DNA from: a virus
Lineage: Duplodnaviria > Heunggongvirae > Uroviricota > Caudoviricetes
IMG/VR virus record: IMGVR_UViG_2529292836_000011
Coordinates: 1-24,486 of that record
Reading direction: 5' to 3' (one strand)
DNA length: 24,486 bases
A program made the translations under genes and the position numbers. Below, piece by piece: positions 16,193 to 24,471 of the stretch. The notes beneath the pieces were generated by a model. It had not been told where the DNA came from. It made no database searches and worked only from the letters and a program-made list of their open reading frames with translations. Positions within the stretch are counted from its first letter, which is position 1; every line of letters begins with the position of its first letter.

Positions 16193-16282
16193 ATGCAAGC
16201 ATTTTGTTTTGGTTTTATGCTTGCTTGTATGTGTGTACAGTGTATATAATGCAAGCATACATCACAATAAAGGTGCTTGCAT
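16193..16282 (+). promoter_or_regulatory. Divergent promoter region with two copies of a palindromic operator (half-site ATGCAAGCAT, 14-bp spacer)
   Basis: ATGCAAGCAT at 16193-16202 pairs with inverted ATGCTTGC at 16217-16224. ATGCAAGCAT at 16249-16258 pairs with GTGCTTGCAT at 16273-16282. A TATAAT at 16245-16250 overlaps the second operator. Confidence 0.5.
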
Positions 16283-16283
16283 T

Positions 16284-17276
16284 ATGACTGAAAAGAAAAG
16301 TGGCGAAGGGAAAGCTAAGGGCGGTATCGCTCGCGCAAAGTCGCTGACTAAAGAGCAGCGTTCTGAAATAGCAAAGAAAGCAGCGGCTGCAAGATGGAAG
16401 GATAAACCATTAATTGCTACGCATAAGGGATCGTTCCAGCATGAATTCGGGATTGATGTTGAGTGCTATGTGTTAAATGATGATAACAAAACTGCCGTTA
16501 TTAGCCAGAGAGGCATGGGAGAAGCGATTGGTCTTGGCGAAGGTGGCAGCAGGTTGCCAAAGTTTATTCAGGGGAAAACTATTTCTCAGTATATCGGGCA
16601 TGAATTAAGGGCAAAACTTGAAAATCCTCTTATTTTTCAATACAAACAGGCGGGCACGAACACTCCAGCTAATCCTGTAATACATGGCTACGATGTAACA
16701 ATATTAATTGATTTATGTCGAGCAATCTCTAATGCTAAAGCTGAAGGTAAGTTGCTTTCCAGTCAGGAAGGGATTGCTAAGCAAGCCAGAATCATTATTG
16801 ATGCATCAGCCAAGGCGGGCATTCAGGGGCTTGTTTATGCTTTGGCAGGGTATGACAGAACAAAAGAAGAGGTAATTCAAGCATATAAGCGATATGTTGC
16901 TGAAGAGGCTCGTGAGTATGAAAGAGAGTTCACCCCTGAACTTTATGAGCATTGGTATCGTCTGTATGGTATAGACAAACCAGTTAGAGGGCGACCATGG
17001 GCGTTTAAATATCTTACGATAGATCACATTTATTACCCATTAGCCAGAAGTGAAGGAAAGGTATTTAATTTAGCAAAAACGTCAAAAGAAGAAAAAGGCA
17101 GCAAAAACGATAAAATACACCAGTTTTTATCAGAGGTTGGAGTTAAGGCTCTTAGAACCCAAATAGGTAAGGTTACTGGTATTGCAATGGTTTCTGATAC
17201 TCGAGAAGAGTATGAGAAATACATAGATGAAAAGGTTATTGGACAAAGAACCATAGACTTAAAAGATAAAGAATAA
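16284..17276 (+). CDS. Hypothetical 331-aa protein with a basic N-terminal tail (possibly P63C-domain / anti-repressor-like family)
   Basis: ATG at 16284 preceded by AAAGGTG. N-terminal KGGIARAKSLTKEQRSEIAKKAAAARW motif. Followed by a strong terminator. The ORF-track start at 16209 would run through the promoter and operators. Family assignment is tentative. Confidence 0.7.
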   Translation: MTEKKSGEGKAKGGIARAKSLTKEQRSEIAKKAAAARWKDKPLIATHKGSFQHEFGIDVECYVLNDDNKTAVISQRGMGEAIGLGEGGSRLPKFIQGKTISQYIGHELRAKLENPLIFQYKQAGTNTPANPVIHGYDVTILIDLCRAISNAKAEGKLLSSQEGIAKQARIIIDASAKAGIQGLVYALAGYDRTKEEVIQAYKRYVAEEAREYEREFTPELYEHWYRLYGIDKPVRGRPWAFKYLTIDHIYYPLARSEGKVFNLAKTSKEEKGSKNDKIHQFLSEVGVKALRTQIGKVTGIAMVSDTREEYEKYIDEKVIGQRTIDLKDKE

Positions 17277-17580: not shown

Positions 17581-18117
17581 TCAAACAACCCACCAGTTTG
17601 CCTGATTGGATACCAGCCTTGCAGTTTTTATGGAATTAATTATGCCATGCTCAAGAGCCTTGTTAGCATCCAAAATGGTCGAGTCTGCTATCAGGGATGC
17701 CCACCTAATATGGGTTCCGATGTCGATATTGAACGTCTCAACGAAGCGATCAAGATCGTTATCGAGGCATTTCCCGTACTCTCTCAATCTGGCATGGTCG
17801 GCGGCTGGGGAGGCAAAGCACCATAATAGAGGATGTAACAGGAATCTTGATAATGGGTTTGCGAAACGTTCTGAGCCAGCCAGGAAAACGATATTAGCTA
17901 TGGATTCAACATTGCTTATGTTGTGAGTTCTAACGGTAACAGGGAGTGACTTAAGAAAGTTATACGCAGTAAAGCCAGCGGCAGTTTCCCCTCCCTGACT
18001 TGATATATGGATATTTAATTCAGTTGCGCCTTGAGATAATGCGGTGAGACAGTGGTTCTGAAGTTGCCCAACAGTGGCAGTGTTAACGGGGCATAAGAAA
18101 TGAATTGTGTGCAGCAT
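17581..18117 (-). CDS. ClpP-like (peptidase S14-fold) protein, N-terminally truncated; translationally coupled to mnt
   Basis: Ungapped match to the recalled ClpP core from the GG motif to the active-site Ser (ISSQGG for INSPGG; VESIAN for AASMGA). His-box RFANPLSRFLLHP for RFCLPNSRVMIHQP. The Asp position reads GIINSI for GLVDSI. Its ATG overlaps the mnt stop (TAATG). Confidence 0.5.
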   Translation of the reverse strand: MLHTIHFLCPVNTATVGQLQNHCLTALSQGATELNIHISSQGGETAAGFTAYNFLKSLPVTVRTHNISNVESIANIVFLAGSERFANPLSRFLLHPLLWCFASPAADHARLREYGKCLDNDLDRFVETFNIDIGTHIRWASLIADSTILDANKALEHGIINSIKTARLVSNQANWWVV

Positions 18118-18365
18118 TATTTTTCATCCTTACCATACATGGTCTTTAGCGTCTCAAGCAGCGCCTCTTTGAATTTGTCAGCTTCTTGCTGAGCAAATGA
18201 CTCAACTGACTTTGGCGACCTATCTTCATCAATCGCGGCTTGCAAAATCATGACGATCTCGGAGTTAACAGAGCGACCATTTTTTGATGCTCTGACAGCA
18301 AGAGCCTCGCGTAAAGATTCAGGGATTCTTACCGTAGTTGGAGAAATTGACACACCCTTTGCCAT
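18117..18365 (-). CDS. mnt: Mnt-like ribbon-helix-helix repressor
   Basis: 82 aa from the ATG at 18365 (AAGGTG upstream). RASKNGRSVNSEIVMILQAAI matches the Arc/Mnt signature (recalled P22 Mnt: RAEANGRSMNSELLQIVQDAL); C-terminus TLKTMYGK versus TLKDLYKK. Confidence 0.8.
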   Translation of the reverse strand: MAKGVSISPTTVRIPESLREALAVRASKNGRSVNSEIVMILQAAIDEDRSPKSVESFAQQEADKFKEALLETLKTMYGKDEK

Positions 18366-18479
18366 ATCACACCTTTGGTATTCAATTTGATAGCAAAGTG
18401 TATGCAAAAAAATTTTGACTAGATATACTCACTTTGATATCTTTTGTATTCGAAAAGAGTTGTTTGCGTGGAGGGTAAC
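18366..18479 (+). promoter_or_regulatory. Divergent mnt/arc promoter-operator region (immI-like)
   Basis: AT-rich 114-bp gap between divergent RHH repressor genes, containing TTGACT and TATACT/TATCTT-like hexamers. By analogy to P22 Pmnt/Pant; the operators were not mapped. Confidence 0.45.
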
Positions 18480-19767: not shown

Positions 19768-19785
19768 CAGATAACCAACGCAACG

Positions 19786-19810
19786 ACCCAGCTTCGGCTG
19801 GGTTTTTTTA
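19786..19810 (+). terminator. Rho-independent terminator (ACCCAGC-TTCG-GCTGGGT then T8)
   Basis: 7-bp stem with a TTCG tetraloop followed by TTTTTTTT, between ant and the tailspike. Confidence 0.7.
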
Positions 19811-19867
19811 TGCCCAAAATTCACCGTAGCCATGCTGCGGCGATTCTTTGCATCTGGAGCAAATTAA

Positions 19868-22138
19868 ATGACAGACATTACAGCCAATGTGATCGTATCG
19901 ATGCCTTCGCAACTATTCACTATGGCTCGTTCTTTTAAAGCCGTAGCCAATGGCAAAATTTATATCGGTAAAATTGACACTGACCCGGTAAATCCTGAAA
20001 ACCGGATTCAGGTTTATGTGGAGAATGAAGACGGTTCTCACGTTCCTGTATCTCAACCAATCATCATTAACGCTGCCGGATATCCGGTATATAACGGACA
20101 GATTGCCAAATTCGTTACCGTGCAAGGCCATTCTATGGCTGTTTATGATGCATATGGTGCGCAGCAGTTCTATTTTCCGAATGTGCTGAAGTATGACCCT
20201 GATCAACTGCGATCTGAACTGGAGGGTCCTGGTGGAGCTGGATTTGTCGGAGGATTAGCAAAGCCTGTTACTTGGAGTGGTTTTGCCGGAGGTGCTGATC
20301 CTACTGGTGTGCTTGATTCAACTGCGGCGTTTCTGGCTGCCAATGCCACGAAAAGTAAAATTTATATCCCAGCGGGCACATACAAACTAACCCAAGATGT
20401 AGTGTCTGATCCCCTTACATCATGGGAAATGGAGATGGGGGTTTCATTTATAGGTGGATACTGGCTGCGTCAGGTACCTTGGTTGTCAGGTGTAGGTAAT
20501 AATATATTTTACTATCTCGAAAGACACTGTAGAAATACATTTATTGCGCCACCTGACGGCATAGGTGTTTACGGGTCGGCACACACTGCCCTCGGTGGTG
20601 CAGGCGGTGCTGCATTAGGGGTGGCAGGTACTGCGATAAACGATGATACATCTGGCTCACGATCAAGTGTGTGGGCCTTGTACGGTTCAGCTATACGCAA
20701 TGCAGGAACAATAGGAGCAAGTCACGGTCTTGAACTTGATATAGCAAACAGGGGGAATGAGCGTGAAATGTATCCTAATTCAATGTTCCCCAACGGTCAG
20801 ACTGACGCATTATGGTTAGGCTCAGGTGGTGAATTAACCCAAGCTGGAGAAGTGTTGAATGCTGCATCGGCAGCAATTGGAATAATAGCTAACGACAAAA
20901 CTGCTGGGAAAACAGCGCGCTTTCTGAAGGGCATCGTATTTGGCAGTAATAGCCTTAAAGGAACCGATGGAGAATCAACAGGTCAAGGTGTGGCAATTGC
21001 TTTTGGTAATAGGCACTCAATGACCTGGTACAACAATTTAAATCAGAAAACTTCTGAAATACTCTCTGTTTTGGAGGATGCAACCAGATCAACCAGAATG
21101 TTATTTAGTGATAATGGCGTAGTATTTACACGATTATCGTCTGGGTTGCCTATATTTGCCATAGAGTCTGGGCCTACAGTTCCTGCCAATTATCTATCCA
21201 TGCGCTCGCATACAGAATCTAATGCTCCTGCTGTTGGCGTTGCTGGAAGCGATAAAGATATTCATTTGAGGCTATCTCCAAAAGGGGATGGCATTGTAAT
21301 AGTAGACTCATCTATTGCACCATTATCACAGAACAGTAACAGCACGGTCGGAACTGCTGGTCGTGTGTGGTCTGGTGGATTCACTCAAACAGCCTTTACC
21401 GTTACTTCAGATGAGCGAGCTAAAACTGCACCTCTTGAAATCACTGATACAATACTTGACGCATGGTCAGAGGTTGACTTCGTTCAATTTCAGTATCTTG
21501 ACAGAACAGAAGAAAAAGGGGAAGACGGAGCTCGTTGGCATTTTGGCGTAATAGCTCAACGTGCAAAGGAGGCGTTTGAACGTCATGGGCTTGATGTGCA
21601 CCGATTTGGATTCTTTTGCTTTGACGAGTGGGATGATCAATATACTAAGGTTCAGACAAACGAAGGTGTAATGGTTACTAAAACTCGCATAACAACAGTT
21701 CCAGTGCAGGTTACTAAAACTCGAATTGTAAGCAAACCAGTGATGGTTACTGAGAGTCGTCAGGTATTAAAGGATGAGGTACTGGAAGACGGAACACGGA
21801 TTAAACGAGTAGTGAATGAAGAGTATCAGACTCCAAAAATGGAAATGATACCTGTTCTTAATGAAGATGGTTCACCTTTTGCGCAAAATCCATTCGTAAG
21901 CGTTCCTGTAGTTGAAGATGTAGAAGAGGAGTACATCGAGACAGAGTTTCAAGAAGTAGAAGAAGAGTATGAAGAAGAGGCAGAACCAGAATATGAAGAT
22001 ATTCTGGTCACTCCGGCAGGCTCACGTTATGGTATCCGTTATGAAGAGGCGTTAGTCCTTGAAGCTGCATTACAACGCAGGAATTACCAAAAAGCATTAT
22101 CTAGAATTGAAATGATAGAAATGAGAGAAAATATATAA
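19868..22138 (+). CDS. Tailspike: P22-type N-terminal head-binding domain, divergent receptor-binding domain, C-terminal S74-type intramolecular chaperone domain
   Basis: N-terminal ~115 aa ([11 protein letters not shown]...[21 protein letters not shown]...[12 protein letters not shown]...NVLKYDPDQ) near-match the recalled P22 gp9 N-terminus. The centre is AT-richer and Gly/Ser/Ala-rich. The C-terminus carries TSDERAKT and [13 protein letters not shown] motifs typical of autocleaving chaperone domains. Confidence 0.9.
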
Positions 22139-22188
22139 CATGCTTTAATAAAGTAAAAATTATCAAAGGTATAAATATTTAATACAAT

Positions 22189-22218
22189 AGGCCATGCTTT
22201 CAGTGGGGAGCATGGCCT
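22189..22218. terminator. Bidirectional terminator hairpin between convergent tailspike and acetyltransferase genes
   Basis: 10-bp perfect inverted repeat AGGCCATGCT/AGCATGGCCT with a 10-nt loop, flanked by A/T-rich runs on both sides. Confidence 0.6.
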
Positions 22219-22232
22219 TAATAAATATTATT

Positions 22233-22877
22233 TTATTTTTCTGAAGCGCTTCTGTTTTCTAATATTTTTAATGGGATTTCAATATTAGACGTCCCGAAAG
22301 ATGAACCAATCAAATTCCACAGCTCATTAGGTTTTAACTTCCACCATTCAGTCTTTAATAATCTATCAATTATTTCTGGAGGATGTCTGTATCTAATAAC
22401 CTTAGCTGGTACTCCTCCTACAATTGCATATGGCGGTACATCTTTAGTAACAACAGAGCCTGCGGCAATGATGGCACCAGTTCCAATATTAACCCCTGCT
22501 AAAATTGTACATCTAGAACCAATCCATACATCATGCCCTATGATAACATCAAGATCTTTCCCAAATATGTCAGAGCTCGCCTGCCATATATGTCCTGTAG
22601 GGTTAAATCCATTTCTTAACTCAGGATCTACAACCATATTTAGCGGGTAACTTGTTAATGTATTTGTCGCATGACGACCTTGTCTTCCAACAAAAATCAC
22701 AACGTCGAAAGCTATAGAGCAATATTCACCAATTGAAAGAATTCGCTTGTCGTCATGCATCCCAATCTCAATTCTTGGTTTTCCGTATGTGTATTCACCA
22801 CACTGAATAGTCAAGAAATCTCTGCTGTAATTAGATCTTAAATAAGAAGCAGTTGATGCTGGGCCAGGAAAATTCAT
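22233..22877 (-). CDS. Hexapeptide-repeat acetyltransferase of the XAT class (Vat/CatB-like)
   Basis: 214 aa; C-terminal IGHDVWIGSRCTILAGVNIGTGAIIAAGSVVTKDVPPYAIVGGVPAKVIRYRHPPEIIDRLLKTEWWKL closely parallels recalled CatB/Vat sequences (IGNDVWIG...GDGA...VTKDV.PYAI.GG.PAK.IK.RF...I..L....WWNW). Markedly AT-rich compared with the structural genes. Confidence 0.85.
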   Translation of the reverse strand: MNFPGPASTASYLRSNYSRDFLTIQCGEYTYGKPRIEIGMHDDKRILSIGEYCSIAFDVVIFVGRQGRHATNTLTSYPLNMVVDPELRNGFNPTGHIWQASSDIFGKDLDVIIGHDVWIGSRCTILAGVNIGTGAIIAAGSVVTKDVPPYAIVGGVPAKVIRYRHPPEIIDRLLKTEWWKLKPNELWNLIGSSFGTSNIEIPLKILENRSASEK

Positions 22878-23152
22878 TGTTATACCTATAGATAATTACT
22901 AAATTCTTGTAAATATAGCTTCATGTTAATAGATAAAACTGCAATTGGTACAATACCACATATTGTCTTTGTTTGAACACTAAGATTGCAAACGCTTGTC
23001 TACTAAGTGGGCACTGAAGGATCGCGATCCGCAGACACATCAAGCAAGTCAGCATTCTATGGCGTGCTGTTACCGATGAAACAAAACGGAGACACACAAA
23101 GCTTTGCACTGGATTGCAAGGCTTTGTGCTCTTCGATAGTTGTTAAGGTGGA

Positions 23153-24310
23153 TCACTCCACCTTTTCATCAATCCAGTCAGCCCACCACTGCATCATTTC
23201 TCTGCGTTTATCGAGATACTGAGCATGGTTGTAAATCCCACGCACAGATCCGCCGTTGGCATGTGCCAGTTGCACTTCAATAGCGTCAGCAGGCCATTCG
23301 TGCTCGTTCATAATTGTGCTGAATTCATGCCTGAATCCGTGACCGCTTTCCAGACCCTCATAGCCGATTTGTTTGATCACAAGTAATACCGCGTTCTCGC
23401 AGATTGGCTTTTTCTTATCGTTGCGCCCGGAAAAAACAAACTCTGATACTGGTTTGGTGATTGAGCTTAGCGTAGTGAGAAGTTCAACCCCCTGGTCTGA
23501 CATCGGTACTACATGAATCTTGCGGCCCTTCATCACACTGGCGTCGATGGTGATAATCCTGTTTTCAAAATCGACGTTCTTCCATAGCATGGAACGAAGC
23601 TCTTTCGTTCTTAGGGCTGTGTAGCGTAAAACTTTGGTCGCAATGAGCGATACGATACTTCCTGAAAATGTTGCCAGTGCTTTGTTGAATGCCGGGATCT
23701 GGTCGGCAGGTAAAAACGGGAAGTTCTTCTTGCGATATCCTTTCATGGCGTCTGCAAGGTCAGGTGCCGGGTTATATTTAGCCCTTCCGGTGACAATAGC
23801 GTAACGGAAAACCTCGCCGCATCTTCTACGTGCTTTGTTGGCTCGCTCCATTGCACCGCGATATTCAAATCTGCGGATTACTTCCAGCAGTTGTATCGGC
23901 TCAATATCCTGAATTTCAAGGCCGCCGATGATAGGTAAAATGTCGTCGTCAAACATTTTGGCAAGTTCGTTTGCATAGCCTACTGACCAGACTTGCTTCT
24001 TGTGCTCGTACCATTCCTTGTAAATCGCACTAAAGGAATTGTTGTTAGACGAAGCCTTTTTCGCCCTTACCGGATCGATGCCAACCGAGATGTCTTTCCT
24101 CGCAGTCCATGCCTTATCCCTTGCTTCCTGCAAAGTCATAAGCGGATATTTTCCGACAGTCAGGATTTTCTCCTTACCGTCAATCTTGTAGCGAAGCTGC
24201 CATACCTTTTTCCCTGATACAGGGACATAAAGGTACAGGCCATTACCATCGAGTAGGCGGTATGGTTTTTCTTTCGGCTTTGCTGCTTCAATCTGCTTAA
24301 CGGTGAGCAT
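23153..24310 (-). CDS. intS: Tyrosine integrase, P4-type (IntS-like)
   Basis: N-terminus LTVKQIEAAKPKEKPYRLLDGNGLYLYVP, catalytic box HGFRHEF and C-terminal Tyr region RGIYNHAQY. Adjacent to a tRNA 3' end. The ATG at 24310 is preferred to the ORF-track GTG at 24346. The intS symbol is by analogy with argW-site integrases. Confidence 0.9.
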   Translation of the reverse strand: MLTVKQIEAAKPKEKPYRLLDGNGLYLYVPVSGKKVWQLRYKIDGKEKILTVGKYPLMTLQEARDKAWTARKDISVGIDPVRAKKASSNNNSFSAIYKEWYEHKKQVWSVGYANELAKMFDDDILPIIGGLEIQDIEPIQLLEVIRRFEYRGAMERANKARRRCGEVFRYAIVTGRAKYNPAPDLADAMKGYRKKNFPFLPADQIPAFNKALATFSGSIVSLIATKVLRYTALRTKELRSMLWKNVDFENRIITIDASVMKGRKIHVVPMSDQGVELLTTLSSITKPVSEFVFSGRNDKKKPICENAVLLVIKQIGYEGLESGHGFRHEFSTIMNEHEWPADAIEVQLAHANGGSVRGIYNHAQYLDKRREMMQWWADWIDEKVE

Positions 24311-24471
24311 GGGTAAAAATCCGGTGGGTAAAATTATTTTATCCACTTTTTACCCGTCATGGAGTGCGGCTGTCAACGATCTGACGCGAACCATGACGAA
24401 CTGTGAATATACGGAAGGCTTGATATTCAGGGGATTTTGCGGACTGGTACGGATGGTAGCGAACTGATAAA

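What the first reader, a model, noticed from the sequence alone, without database searches (positions are those of the whole stretch)
19868..22138. Mosaic tailspike with a P22 head-binding domain and a C-terminal autocleaving chaperone domain
The first ~115 residues are near-identical in pattern to the P22 gp9 head-binding domain, then the sequence and composition change abruptly into an AT-richer receptor-binding region. The C-terminus carries TSDERAKT and HFGVIAQ motifs characteristic of S74-type intramolecular chaperone domains, placing the predicted cleavage about 240 residues from the end. Receptor specificity is therefore not that of P22 and may target the polysaccharide modified by the neighbouring acetyltransferase.
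Basis: partly seen in the sequence, partly recalled or inferred. Interest (0 to 1): 0.5.

Follow-up and report, generated by a model that had tools for sequence, protein, structure and literature searches.

The report
CUS-3-type mosaic prophage tailspike
This gene encodes the host-recognition spike of a P22-like E. coli prophage, built from a standard P22-type tail anchor, a rare uncharacterised sugar-binding domain and a self-removing folding helper; the design is already known from phage CUS-3, and only the unusually long helper domain is out of the ordinary.

Summary
ORF 19868-22138 (+) encodes a 756-aa protein. Pfam Head_binding covers residues 1-113 (E=2.7e-66) and Peptidase_S74 covers 514-575 (E=1.3e-14). 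TSDERAKT lies at 513-520 and HFGVIAQ at 558-564. By homology with endoNF and T5 pb1, the Ser514/Lys519 dyad should cut T513|S514. That would release a 243-aa chaperone and leave a 53.9-kDa mature spike.

The context is a P22-like (Lederbergvirus) prophage at the intS/yfdC site. It has the same layout as CUS-3: head-binding domain, foreign receptor-binding domain (RBD), S74 chaperone, hexapeptide acetyltransferase, integrase.

Corrections:
- The RBD is AT-richer only at third codon positions.
- The head-binding domain is closer to CUS-3 (94%) than to P22 (73%).
- The acetyltransferase and the RBD assort independently. The acetyltransferase is most like CatB/Vat xenobiotic enzymes, so its link to the spike's target is unproven.

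New points:
- The RBD is rare and absent from sequenced phages. Its fold could not be resolved beyond a β-helix cap.
- The chaperone is long because its "tentacle" carries a conserved repeat expansion.

Verdict: a new member of a known kind, of modest interest.

The parts
19868..22138 (+). Tailspike gene, 756 codons plus stop; the precursor is 82.3 kDa
   Evidence: ORF list. The identical protein is NCBI cluster P0173, named 'phage tailspike protein', with 89 member sequences. It is found on at least 11 contigs.
19868..20212 (+). Head-binding (tail-attachment) domain, aa 1-115
   Evidence: PF09008, E=2.7e-66. Identity is 94% to CUS-3, 88% to Sf6 gp14 (7sg7) and 73% to P22 gp9.
20192..20206 (+). 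YDPDQ hinge, the 5' mosaic junction
   Evidence: Motif position. All phage DNA matches end at nt 329-344 of the gene. RBD relatives with other N-termini become alignable from about aa 116.
20213..21262 (+). Receptor-binding domain, aa 116-465; a rare family with a pectate-lyase-like beta-helix cap motif at aa 139-178
   Evidence: PF12708 matches below its cut-off in the window protein (E=0.004-0.008) but in 8 of 11 family members (best E=2.4e-7). Only about 50 relatives were found among 5.8 billion proteins. No sequenced phage carries a close relative. No solved homologue was found.
21263..21406 (+). Pre-cleavage stalk, aa 466-513; presumed triple beta-helix, includes R499
   Evidence: The profile matches the C-terminal stalk of mature K5 lyase (2x3h residues 489-541, E=2e-8) and 9vvr residues 664-714. 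R499 aligns with an endoNF stalk arginine that I take to be R897, the residue important for cleavage (PMC8326128).
21404..21424 (+). T513-S514-D-E-R-A-K519: predicted scissile bond T513|S514 and Ser/Lys catalytic dyad
   Evidence: Motif position. It is equivalent to endoNF T910|S911...K916 (PMC3828593) and T5 pb1 T1263|S1264...K1269 (PMC4690869).
21407..22135 (+). C-terminal intramolecular chaperone (S74), aa 514-756; 243 aa, 28.4 kDa, predicted to be released
   Evidence: PF13884, E=1.3e-14. PDB matches: 9vvr E=8e-60, 3gw6 E=4e-19, 3gud E=2e-18, 4uw8 E=1e-6. There are 5,640 relatives among 1.84 billion representatives.
21647..22015 (+). Expanded 'tentacle' segment, aa 594-716: three basic V-x-V-T-K-T-R units, D-G turn regions, then acidic E-E-V-E-E-E-Y units
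   Evidence: Absent from the closest RBD relatives and from 9vvr and endoNF. It shows 36-nt periodic repeats. It belongs to a discrete long class: 22 of the 133 database proteins with both motifs, HFG-to-GSRYG spacing 117-164 aa against a median of 66. The segment is conserved across that class. It was predicted as long beta strands at pLDDT about 70.
22016..22135 (+). Chaperone C-terminal helix ([24 protein letters not shown]...); the 3' mosaic junction lies after aa 739
   Evidence: Matches 9vvr residues 794-834 and 3gw6 residues 220-274. The ATCC 43886 copy is identical up to ALQRRN (aa 739) and then diverges together with the downstream gene.
22233..22877 (-). Neighbouring 214-aa hexapeptide-repeat acetyltransferase (a moron at the lysogenic-conversion position); GC 0.29-0.41 in the 300-nt windows over the gene
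   Evidence: Pfam Hexapep. CatB/Vat-like but below all NCBIfam cut-offs. Nearest structures are CatB/Vat (E=4e-25); NeuO 3jqy scores E=2e-10. No NeuO-type tandem repeat is present.
23153..24346 (-). IntS-type tyrosine integrase, marking the prophage end at the intS/yfdC site, beside tRNA-Arg in the complete genomes
   Evidence: Pfam Phage_integrase, Arm-DNA-bind_3 and Phage_int_M. Nearly identical to the CUS-3 integrase by inspection of the two ORF translations. Homologous loci continue into tRNA-Arg, yfdC and mlaA.

Best explanation
This is the tailspike (gene 9 equivalent) of a CUS-3-like, P22-type (Lederbergvirus) prophage of E. coli. It is assembled from three exchangeable modules.

1. Residues 1-115 are the conserved head-binding domain that plugs the trimer into the tail hub. 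This is shown by homology.
2. Residues 116-465 are a rare receptor-binding domain that begins like a right-handed beta-helix polysaccharide enzyme. It most likely binds, and probably cleaves, a surface polysaccharide of its host. This is inferred. The O25 O-antigen of the ETEC lineage that carries it is the best guess, at about 0.4.
3. Residues 466-756 are a K5-lyase-type stalk plus an S74 intramolecular chaperone. After translation, three chaperone domains trimerise through their C-terminal helices. Their beta-hairpin tentacles clasp the upstream chains and nucleate the triple beta-helix stalk. Once the stalk is correctly folded, the Ser514-Lys519 dyad, helped by stalk Arg499, cuts the T513|S514 bond. 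This releases a 28-kDa fragment and leaves a 54-kDa mature spike whose distal end is unmasked. The mechanism is inferred from endoNF, GA-1 gp12 and T5 pb1. The residues are shown to be present; cleavage itself is untested.

The chaperone is about 100 residues longer than usual. Its tentacle carries a conserved expansion of paired basic and acidic 12-residue units.

The downstream acetyltransferase occupies the lysogenic-conversion slot but is an independently swapping cassette.
For: Domain calls are far above curated cut-offs, with 39 PHROG tail spike/fibre families matching.

Solved homologues cover the N-terminal domain (7sg7, 2vky, 1lkt) and the C-terminal module (9vvr, 3gw6, 3gud, 6eu4, 4uw8, 2x3h).

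The catalytic Thr-Ser-x4-Lys motif and the stalk Arg are in register with endoNF and T5 pb1.

The gene sits downstream of P22-type ejection-protein genes and an Arc/Arc/antirepressor region, and upstream of a conversion gene, intS and yfdC. The upstream 19.9 kb is about 96% identical to phages phiv205-1 and CUS-3 over 60-72% of its length.

CUS-3 has the same architecture. Its head-binding domain is 94% identical and its S74 domain 34% identical. neuO and a nearly identical integrase follow the spike gene.

Mosaic junctions are mapped at YDPDQ, near nt 1577 and after aa 739.

The ORF is intact, and the cluster holding the identical protein has 89 member sequences. The exact protein is on at least 11 contigs.

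All three complete genomes with this RBD are related strains. Two are named O25:NM or assigned O25:H16. E2528-C1's O25:NM serotype is from my own knowledge.
Against: No experiment exists on this protein. Cleavage, trimerisation and enzymatic activity are all inferred.

The RBD fold could not be established. The AlphaFold2 models were poor (mean pLDDT 52 and 64). Foldseek gave no hit at E<=0.001. The PF12708 match is below its threshold for this sequence.

The O25 assignment rests on three probably clonal genomes and on record names, not on serotyping of the window's own host.

The mature K5 lyase chain in 2x3h ends with the serine, so the exact scissile bond has a one-residue uncertainty.
Confidence: 0.85

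Rival explanations
1. The receptor-binding domain is a capsule (K-antigen) or other exopolysaccharide depolymerase rather than an O-antigen-specific enzyme, as in CUS-3 (K1) and the K5 lyase spikes whose stalk and chaperone it shares.
For: The stalk and chaperone are most similar to K5-lyase-type spikes: 78-80% identity over the first 79 chaperone residues, and stalk matches to 2x3h and 9vvr. The closest prophage relative, CUS-3, targets a capsule. From my own knowledge, carrier strain ATCC 43886 is listed as O25:K98.
Against: The catalytic body shows no meaningful similarity to K5 lyase or endosialidase; only weak, non-significant local matches were seen. According to the BASEL paper, the classical Lederbergvirus spikes (P22, HK620, Sf6) bind O-antigens. 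The only host information available is an O-group.
Confidence: 0.25
2. The central domain binds but does not cleave its receptor, or modifies it (for example by deacetylation) rather than depolymerising it.
For: No catalytic residues could be assigned. The fold is unresolved. Esterase tailspikes exist in other podophages (paper listed, PMC11654681).
Against: The domain opens with the G-A-D-P-T-G...A-A-F cap motif typical of PF12708 beta-helix glycanases and lyases. Acidic residues are invariant or nearly so across the family: E218 and E289 invariant, D259 in at least 90% of sequences. No esterase family appeared among the Pfam matches at E<=1.
Confidence: 0.15
3. The expanded chaperone is not released. 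The long insertion disables autocleavage, so the C-terminal domain stays on the virion as part of the functional spike.
For: The insertion is unusual: 22 long-class proteins among the 133 with both motifs in the 149 relatives examined. No long-class member has been studied experimentally, as far as the literature searches showed.
Against: The dyad, the preceding Thr, the stalk Arg and the C-terminal helix are all intact. The insertion lies in the tentacle, which already varies in length among cleaving chaperones (PMC4690869; PMC8326128). In T5 the uncleaved form cannot bind receptor.
Confidence: 0.07
4. The gene is a decaying remnant of a defective prophage and makes no functional spike.
For: Several related loci are degraded. 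F5505-C1 is cut by IS100, PK8276 is split into two ORFs and GN25 is frameshifted.
Against: In the window the ORF is intact. It is preceded by an apparently complete P22-type late region running from terminase to ejection-protein genes. The same 756-aa sequence recurs on at least 11 contigs, in a cluster of 89 member sequences. RBD relatives at 53-89% identity keep the same reading frame.
Confidence: 0.05

Closest known systems
Tailspike (endosialidase SiaK1) of E. coli K1 prophage CUS-3, with neuO and int at argW
   Same: Same phage type and the same integrase-proximal end of the prophage. The head-binding domain is 94% identical and ends at the same YDPDQL junction. A foreign RBD is followed by an S74 chaperone with a T-S-D-x-x-x-K dyad (34% identity). 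A hexapeptide O-acetyltransferase gene lies between the spike and a nearly identical integrase.
   Different: The RBD is unrelated to the endosialidase. The chaperone here has the long tentacle. The acetyltransferase is on the opposite strand and lacks the phase-variable heptanucleotide repeat. It shares only the 53-residue hexapeptide core with NeuO at 47% identity, and is CatB/Vat-like.
P22 gp9, Sf6 gp14 and HK620 gp9 tailspikes
   Same: N-terminal head-binding domain (73% identity to P22, 88% to Sf6), gene position, and the role of O-antigen-directed trimeric spikes.
   Different: In the PDB searches, these proteins matched only through the N-terminal head-binding domain and not over the C-terminal chaperone region. 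From my own knowledge, their beta-helix bodies end in their own C-terminal trimerisation domains and are not processed.
K5 lyase tailspikes (KflA, 2x3h; K1-5/K5-type spikes; 9vvr)
   Same: They are the closest relatives of the stalk and of the N-terminal half of the chaperone: about 78% identity over 79 residues, with a stalk profile match at E=2e-8.
   Different: They have a different catalytic body, a different N-terminal adaptor (SP6/K1-5-type phages) and a short tentacle. In 9vvr, query residues 595-700 have no counterpart.
Structurally characterised S74 chaperones: endoNF CIMCD (3gw6), GA-1 gp12 (3gud), T5 pb1 (4uw8)
   Same: Ser/Lys dyad five residues apart, a Thr before the Ser, a stalk Arg, an HFG-x-IAQ core, beta-hairpin tentacles and a C-terminal trimerising helix.
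   Different: Those domains are about 129-154 residues long; this one is 243. In endoNF, only about 16 unaligned residues (chain 204-220) separate the two matched blocks that are 106 residues apart here.

Membership tests
P22-like (Lederbergvirus) tailspike | N-terminal head-binding domain (Pfam PF09008) over its full length | tested here: met
   221 bits against a cut-off of 24, profile positions 1-113 of 113. 73-94% identity to P22, Sf6 and CUS-3.
P22-like (Lederbergvirus) tailspike | Gene position: after the ejection-protein genes and the Arc/Mnt/antirepressor region, before the conversion gene and integrase | tested here: met
   P22_gp16, Arc x2, P22_AR_N/C, tailspike, acetyltransferase, intS, yfdC. 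The upstream 19.9 kb matches phiv205-1 and CUS-3 at about 96%.
P22-like (Lederbergvirus) tailspike | Trimeric right-handed beta-helix receptor-binding body | tested here: inconclusive
   Only the N-terminal cap motif is detectable. PF12708 is below its cut-off, and Foldseek gives local matches of 70-90 residues. Models have pLDDT 52 and 64. A trimer could not be modelled.
P22-like (Lederbergvirus) tailspike | Binds the tail hub of the virion | not testable with these tools
   Needs virion structure or biochemistry.
Peptidase S74 / C-terminal intramolecular chaperone domain | Profile match to PF13884 | tested here: met
   54.6 bits against a cut-off of 22, profile positions 1-58 of 58. phmmer hits to 3gw6, 3gud, 6eu4, 7y5s and 4uw8.
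Peptidase S74 / C-terminal intramolecular chaperone domain | Catalytic Ser with Lys at +5, preceded by Thr at the scissile bond | tested here: met
   T513-S514-D-E-R-A-K519 aligns with endoNF T910/S911/K916 and T5 T1263/S1264/K1269.
Peptidase S74 / C-terminal intramolecular chaperone domain | Upstream stalk with the conserved arginine that takes part in cleavage (endoNF R897) | tested here: met
   R499 aligns with the endoNF stalk Arg. The equivalence to R897 is my reading of the numbering. The stalk profile matches K5 lyase residues 489-541. The role of R897 is described in PMC8326128.
Peptidase S74 / C-terminal intramolecular chaperone domain | C-terminal trimerising helix after the tentacle | tested here: met
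   [24 protein letters not shown] matches 9vvr residues 794-834 and 3gw6 residues 220-274. Predicted as a helix at residues 725-755.
Peptidase S74 / C-terminal intramolecular chaperone domain | Autoproteolytic release after folding | not testable with these tools
   Needs SDS-PAGE or mass spectrometry of wild type against S514A and K519A.
Endosialidase (CUS-3 / K1F type) tailspike | Sialidase beta-propeller catalytic body | tested here: not met
   BLASTP against the CUS-3 spike aligns only residues 1-124 and 483-602, with nothing in the central domain.
Pectate-lyase-like beta-helix (PF12708) | Profile match above the gathering score | tested here: inconclusive
   16.5-17.5 bits against a cut-off of 27, covering only profile positions 8-50. 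8 of 11 family members match, best E=2.4e-7.
Polysaccharide O-acetyltransferase of the NeuO type (the neighbouring gene) | Closest similarity to NeuO/OatWY-type enzymes, plus a phase-variable 5' heptanucleotide repeat | tested here: not met
   The best matches are CatB/Vat xenobiotic acetyltransferases, all below their cut-offs. NeuO 3jqy reaches only E=2e-10, covering the hexapeptide core. No tandem repeats were found.

The most novel reading that the evidence does not exclude
The 243-residue chaperone may represent an undescribed 'long-tentacle' subclass of S74 intramolecular chaperones. In it the beta3-beta4 tentacle would be expanded into a roughly 120-residue antiparallel ribbon. One arm is built from basic V-T-K-T-R units and the other from acidic E-E-Y units. 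Both arms appear to lengthen together in 12-residue steps: the 160-164 class has one extra unit on each side compared with the 140 class. Such a ribbon could be long enough to reach past the stalk and clasp, or mask, much of the receptor-binding body during folding. That would make the chaperone a template for the whole distal spike and not only for the triple beta-helix.
Probability: 0.35. Interest if true: 0.45.

Novelty: new member of a known kind. Interest (0 to 1): 0.3.

Why it matters
The architecture itself is textbook modular tailspike evolution, already exemplified by CUS-3, so it changes no concepts. It has three practical or modest values.

1. It defines an uncharacterised receptor-binding domain family of about 50 known sequences. 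At least four N-terminal adaptor types are attached to it. None is in a cultured phage. In E. coli it is tied to the O25 ETEC lineage, which makes it a candidate O25-specific depolymerase for typing, pyocin retargeting or therapy.

2. It gives a clean natural example of three recombination junctions in one gene. One lies inside the last 50 nt and couples the end of the spike gene to whichever lysogenic-conversion cassette follows.

3. It reveals a discrete long-tentacle class of S74 chaperones. Paired basic and acidic repeat expansions in this class could be used to test how far these chaperones template the folding of upstream domains.

Tried and rejected
- AlphaFold2 of residues 116-756 with 16 sequences gave mean pLDDT 52. 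I did not use it for fold comparison.
- AlphaFold2 of the RBD alone with 37 sequences gave pLDDT 64 and pTM 0.49. Foldseek against the PDB gave no hit at E<=0.001, only short cap-region matches. The enzymatic class is therefore left open.
- A profile of the RBD family against all PDB sequences found only the stalk (K5 lyase, 9vvr) and chance matches to designed beta-trefoils.
- NCBIfam has no model for the tailspike.
- I considered whether the 123-aa tentacle segment (aa 594-716) was an assembly artefact, a mobile element or recent junk, and rejected all three. It is in frame and at least 98.4% identical across the 12 complete E. coli genomes that carry it in full. It is present at 46-66% identity in about 20 different 50%-identity clusters with characteristic lengths, and in a compost metagenome fragment.
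- I looked for a NeuO-like phase-variable repeat in or upstream of the acetyltransferase and found none.
- I tested whether the acetyltransferase and this RBD are a fixed pair. They are not.
- The promoter and terminator scan around the gene was no better than shuffled sequence. The exception is a strong hairpin with a T-run at 19785-19804, upstream of the gene.
- I could not serotype the window's own host. Only the contig (AQEB01000011.1, assembly GCA_000354895.2) was identified.
Full report
OBSERVATION

The window contains a single long ORF at exactly 19868-22138 on the + strand, encoding 756 aa and starting MTDITANV. Pfam places Head_binding (PF09008) on residues 1-113 over the whole profile (221 bits, cut-off 24, E=2.7e-66). 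It places Peptidase_S74 (PF13884) on residues 514-575 over the whole profile (54.6 bits, cut-off 22, E=1.3e-14). PHROGs returns 39 families, nearly all annotated as tail spike or tail fibre.

TSDERAKT is at aa 513-520 (nt 21404-21427) and HFGVIAQ is at aa 558-564.

The N-terminal 116-124 residues are 73% identical to P22 gp9, 88% to Sf6 gp14 and 94% to the CUS-3 tailspike. The sequence break is abrupt. Every megablast hit in 50,697 phage records ends between nt 329 and 344 of the gene, immediately after the YDPDQ hinge at aa 109-113.

The compositional statement is only half right. Overall GC rises from 0.435 in the head-binding part to 0.46 in aa 116-513, and to 0.484 in aa 116-250. Third-position GC falls from 0.41 to 0.33. 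The chaperone part is AT-richer by both measures, with GC 0.41 and GC3 0.29.

CONTEXT

The window is contig AQEB01000011.1 of E. coli assembly GCA_000354895.2. Upstream lie P22-type genes:
- the ejection-protein gene gp16;
- a P63C-domain gene;
- a ClpP-family gene;
- two Arc-family repressor genes;
- a P22-type antirepressor gene.

Downstream lie a 214-aa hexapeptide acetyltransferase on the opposite strand and an IntS-type integrase. In longer homologous contigs yfdC and mlaA follow, and the annotated complete genomes also show tRNA-Arg between intS and yfdC.

The 19.9 kb upstream of the spike gene is about 96% identical to phage phiv205-1 over 72% of its length and to CUS-3 over 60%. This is therefore the gene 9 equivalent of a Lederbergvirus prophage at the integration site that CUS-3 uses.

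NCBI already names the identical protein 'phage tailspike protein'. Its 90% cluster, P0173, has 89 member sequences.

THE C-TERMINAL MODULE

Residues 465-756 match solved chaperone-bearing proteins:
- a K5-lyase-type tail spike, 9vvr (E=8e-60);
- the pre-cleavage endoNF fragment, 3gw6 (E=4e-19);
- the released GA-1 gp12 chaperone, 3gud (E=2e-18);
- 6eu4 and 7y5s;
- T5 pb1, 4uw8.

The stalk just before the motif (aa 466-513) matches the C-terminal stalk of mature K5 lyase, 2x3h residues 489-541 (E=2e-8).

According to PMC3828593, endoNF is cut immediately N-terminal of Ser911. Lys916 acts as the general base, and Thr910 helps to strain the bond. In T5 pb1 the mature protein ends at residue 1263. 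Ser1264 is catalytic and Lys1269 is its partner. The uncleaved protein cannot block phage adsorption, so the chaperone masks the receptor site (PMC4690869).

The window protein has T513-S514-D-E-R-A-K519 in exact register. R499 aligns with an endoNF stalk arginine. I take that residue to be R897, which PMC8326128 describes as important for cleavage.

The predicted products are a mature spike of 513 residues (53.9 kDa) and a released fragment of 243 residues (28.4 kDa). One caution applies. The deposited mature K5 lyase chain ends ...AFTVTS, including the serine. The exact bond therefore carries a one-residue uncertainty until it is measured.

WHY THE CHAPERONE IS SO LONG

Typical chaperone domains are about 129-154 residues, as in GA-1, T5 pb1 and endoNF. 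In the alignment with the closest RBD relatives, the window protein alone carries extra residues. They lie between the conserved F-C-F-D-E-W strand and the [11 protein letters not shown] helix start. In 9vvr and endoNF, query residues 595-700 have no counterpart.

This is where endoNF has its beta3-beta3a-beta3b-beta4 'extremely long tentacle', which contacts the stalk and the upstream domain (PMC8326128). T5 pb1 has 'long beta-hairpin tentacles' at the equivalent place, and phi29 has much shorter ones.

The DNA of the segment shows 36-nt periodicity. There are three V-x-V-T-K-T-R units at 21668, 21704 and 21740, and three acidic E-[DE]-V-E-E-E-Y units near 21915-21998.

The segment is not an artefact:
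- Among complete E. coli genomes, 12 of 5,426 carry the whole segment at 98.4-100% identity, and two more carry part of it.
- It is absent from all phage records.
- A compost-metagenome fragment carries a copy of its acidic half that is 57% identical.

An exhaustive HMMER search of 1.84 billion representatives found 5,640 S74 relatives. I examined the 149 representatives from that search that were on file, the earlier hits and the window protein together. Both motifs were found in 134 proteins, of which 133 are database proteins.

The spacing from the HFG motif to the GSRYG motif is bimodal. Most proteins have 45-95 residues, with an overall median of 66. Twenty-two database proteins have 117-164 residues, with preferred values of 140, 160 and 164. 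The window protein has 160.

The long segment is conserved in sequence across these proteins. They have quite different upstream domains and lengths of 265-1116 aa.

Relative to the 140 class, the eight aligned proteins with a spacing of 160 or 164, including the window protein, have one extra basic unit on the N-terminal side and one extra acidic unit on the C-terminal side. The basic arm (aa 598-640) has a pI of 9.5. The acidic arm (aa 678-712) has a pI of 4.05 and contains no Lys or Arg. The first AlphaFold model predicted long strands at 602-624 and 682-704, with pLDDT about 70.

I infer an elongated antiparallel tentacle whose two arms lengthen together. This is an inference from sequence and is not a demonstrated structure.

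THE RECEPTOR-BINDING DOMAIN

Residues 116-465 are a rare family. A single-sequence search found 21 relatives and a profile search found 50, among 5.8 billion proteins. There is no close relative in any sequenced phage. The best phage hit is 27.7% identity over 60% of the query, to a Stappia phage spike.

Relatives carry other N-termini:
- a P22 head-binding domain (P0174, P0191);
- a PF18668 N-terminal domain (P0039, P0176);
- two other N-terminal types.

They become alignable at residue 116 or so. The RBD plus stalk plus chaperone is thus a cassette shared between phage types.

The domain opens with [10 protein letters not shown]-x-x-D-S-x-A-A-F. Pfam recognises this as the cap of PF12708 (pectate-lyase-like beta-helix). 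The match is below the cut-off in this sequence but appears in 8 of 11 family members, best E=2.4e-7. E218 and E289 are invariant across the family and D259 is nearly so.

Neither AlphaFold run gave a trustworthy model (pLDDT 52 and 64). Foldseek gave no significant PDB hit, only 70-90-residue matches to the caps of beta-helix glycanases, lyases and tailspikes. The PDB profile search found only the stalk.

I therefore treat 'beta-helix polysaccharide depolymerase' as the most likely reading but not as established. Hydrolase, lyase and simple binder remain open.

HOST AND RECEPTOR

Only three of 5,426 complete E. coli genomes carry this RBD: ATCC 43886, E2528-C1 and 2014EL-1343-2. All three copies are about 99% identical to the window over nt 1-2217. 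One record is named O25:NM, and ATCC 43886 is assigned O25:H16 in the ETEC reference-genome paper. From my own knowledge, E2528-C1 is O25:NM. These strains are probably clonally related, so this is weak evidence. O25 O-antigen is nevertheless the best available guess for the receptor.

THE ACETYLTRANSFERASE HYPOTHESIS

The position of the gene fits lysogenic conversion. In CUS-3, neuO occupies the same slot. P22 gtrABC and Sf6 oac are the same from my own knowledge. Two results weaken a specific link.

First, the modules assort independently.
- In the three complete genomes with this RBD, the downstream gene is a GT2 glycosyltransferase. The spike is identical from aa 47 to aa 739 and diverges only in its last 17 residues, together with the downstream gene.
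- The acetyltransferase, at 97.7-100% DNA identity, occurs in 10 complete genomes. None of the 10 is among the three genomes that carry this RBD. In the two checked at protein level, the spike keeps the same long chaperone but has a distantly related RBD, about 30% identical.
- In draft assemblies, the exact window protein sits on at least 11 contigs. In all six places shown it lies next to the acetyltransferase.

Second, the enzyme's nearest families and structures are CatB/Vat xenobiotic acetyltransferases. NCBIfam scores are about 105 bits against cut-offs of 300-415, and PDB E-values reach 4e-25. NeuO matches only through the hexapeptide core, at E=2e-10 and 47% identity over 53 residues. 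There is no NeuO-type phase-variable repeat. The substrate of the enzyme is therefore unknown.

COMPARISON AND NOVELTY

The closest described system is CUS-3. It is the same phage type with a nearly identical integrase. Its head-binding domain is 94% identical. A foreign catalytic body is followed by an S74 chaperone, and a hexapeptide acetyltransferase lies next door.

The combination of a P22 head-binding domain with an S74 chaperone is thus a known kind. The protein is already auto-annotated as a tailspike. What is new is the particular RBD family, which is uncharacterised, and the recognition that its chaperone belongs to a discrete long-tentacle class. I found no description of that class in the papers retrieved, but this literature check was limited.

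VERDICT

The finding is a new member of a known kind, and its interest is modest (0.3). The most novel reading that the evidence does not exclude is the co-extending basic/acidic tentacle ribbon acting as a template for the whole distal spike. I give it a probability of about 0.35, and it would be of moderate interest if true.

Noticed in passing
window 17581-18117 (-) and 18117-18407 (-): A 178-aa ClpP-family protease homologue (PF00574, E=2e-11) sits directly downstream of an Arc-family repressor gene, inside the immI-like region between the ejection-protein genes and the antirepressor. ATCC 43886 has small hypothetical genes in its place. It may be a moron or a defence/counter-defence cassette.
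   Followed up: partly
window 16209-17276 (+): A P63C-domain protein (PF10546, E=1.2e-8) of 330-355 aa lies just after the gp16-like ejection-protein gene. It is conserved in the related prophages (L001, L005-L009). Its function is unknown.
   Followed up: no
L011 2749-4497 and L002 4832-6430 (type-B spikes of F5505-C1 and PK8276): These related spikes carry a tandem duplication of the cleavage region (...FTVTSDENHKTKNPPILARGVLDFVVTSDERLMQ...), giving two candidate Ser sites about 20 residues apart ahead of the same long chaperone. In F5505-C1 an IS100 element lies immediately upstream of a spike ORF that lacks its 5' part.
   Followed up: partly
window 22100-23000: The acetyltransferase cassette has much lower GC than the rest of the window (0.29-0.41 in 300-nt windows against 0.473 overall), which is consistent with recent foreign origin. 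The 3' end of the tailspike gene falls to 0.35-0.40 as it approaches the cassette.
   Followed up: partly
window 19785-19804 (+): A strong terminator-like hairpin (GACCCAGC-TTCG-GCTGGGTT followed by a T-run) lies between the antirepressor gene and the tailspike start, with a second weaker one at 19824-19840. Transcription of the spike gene presumably needs read-through or antitermination, as I recall for P22 late genes.
   Followed up: no
L001 8331-10076 (-), ATCC 43886: In the three complete O25 genomes, the conversion slot next to the same spike holds a 581-aa GT2 glycosyltransferase instead of the acetyltransferase. The same prophage backbone thus offers alternative surface-modification cassettes.
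   Followed up: partly
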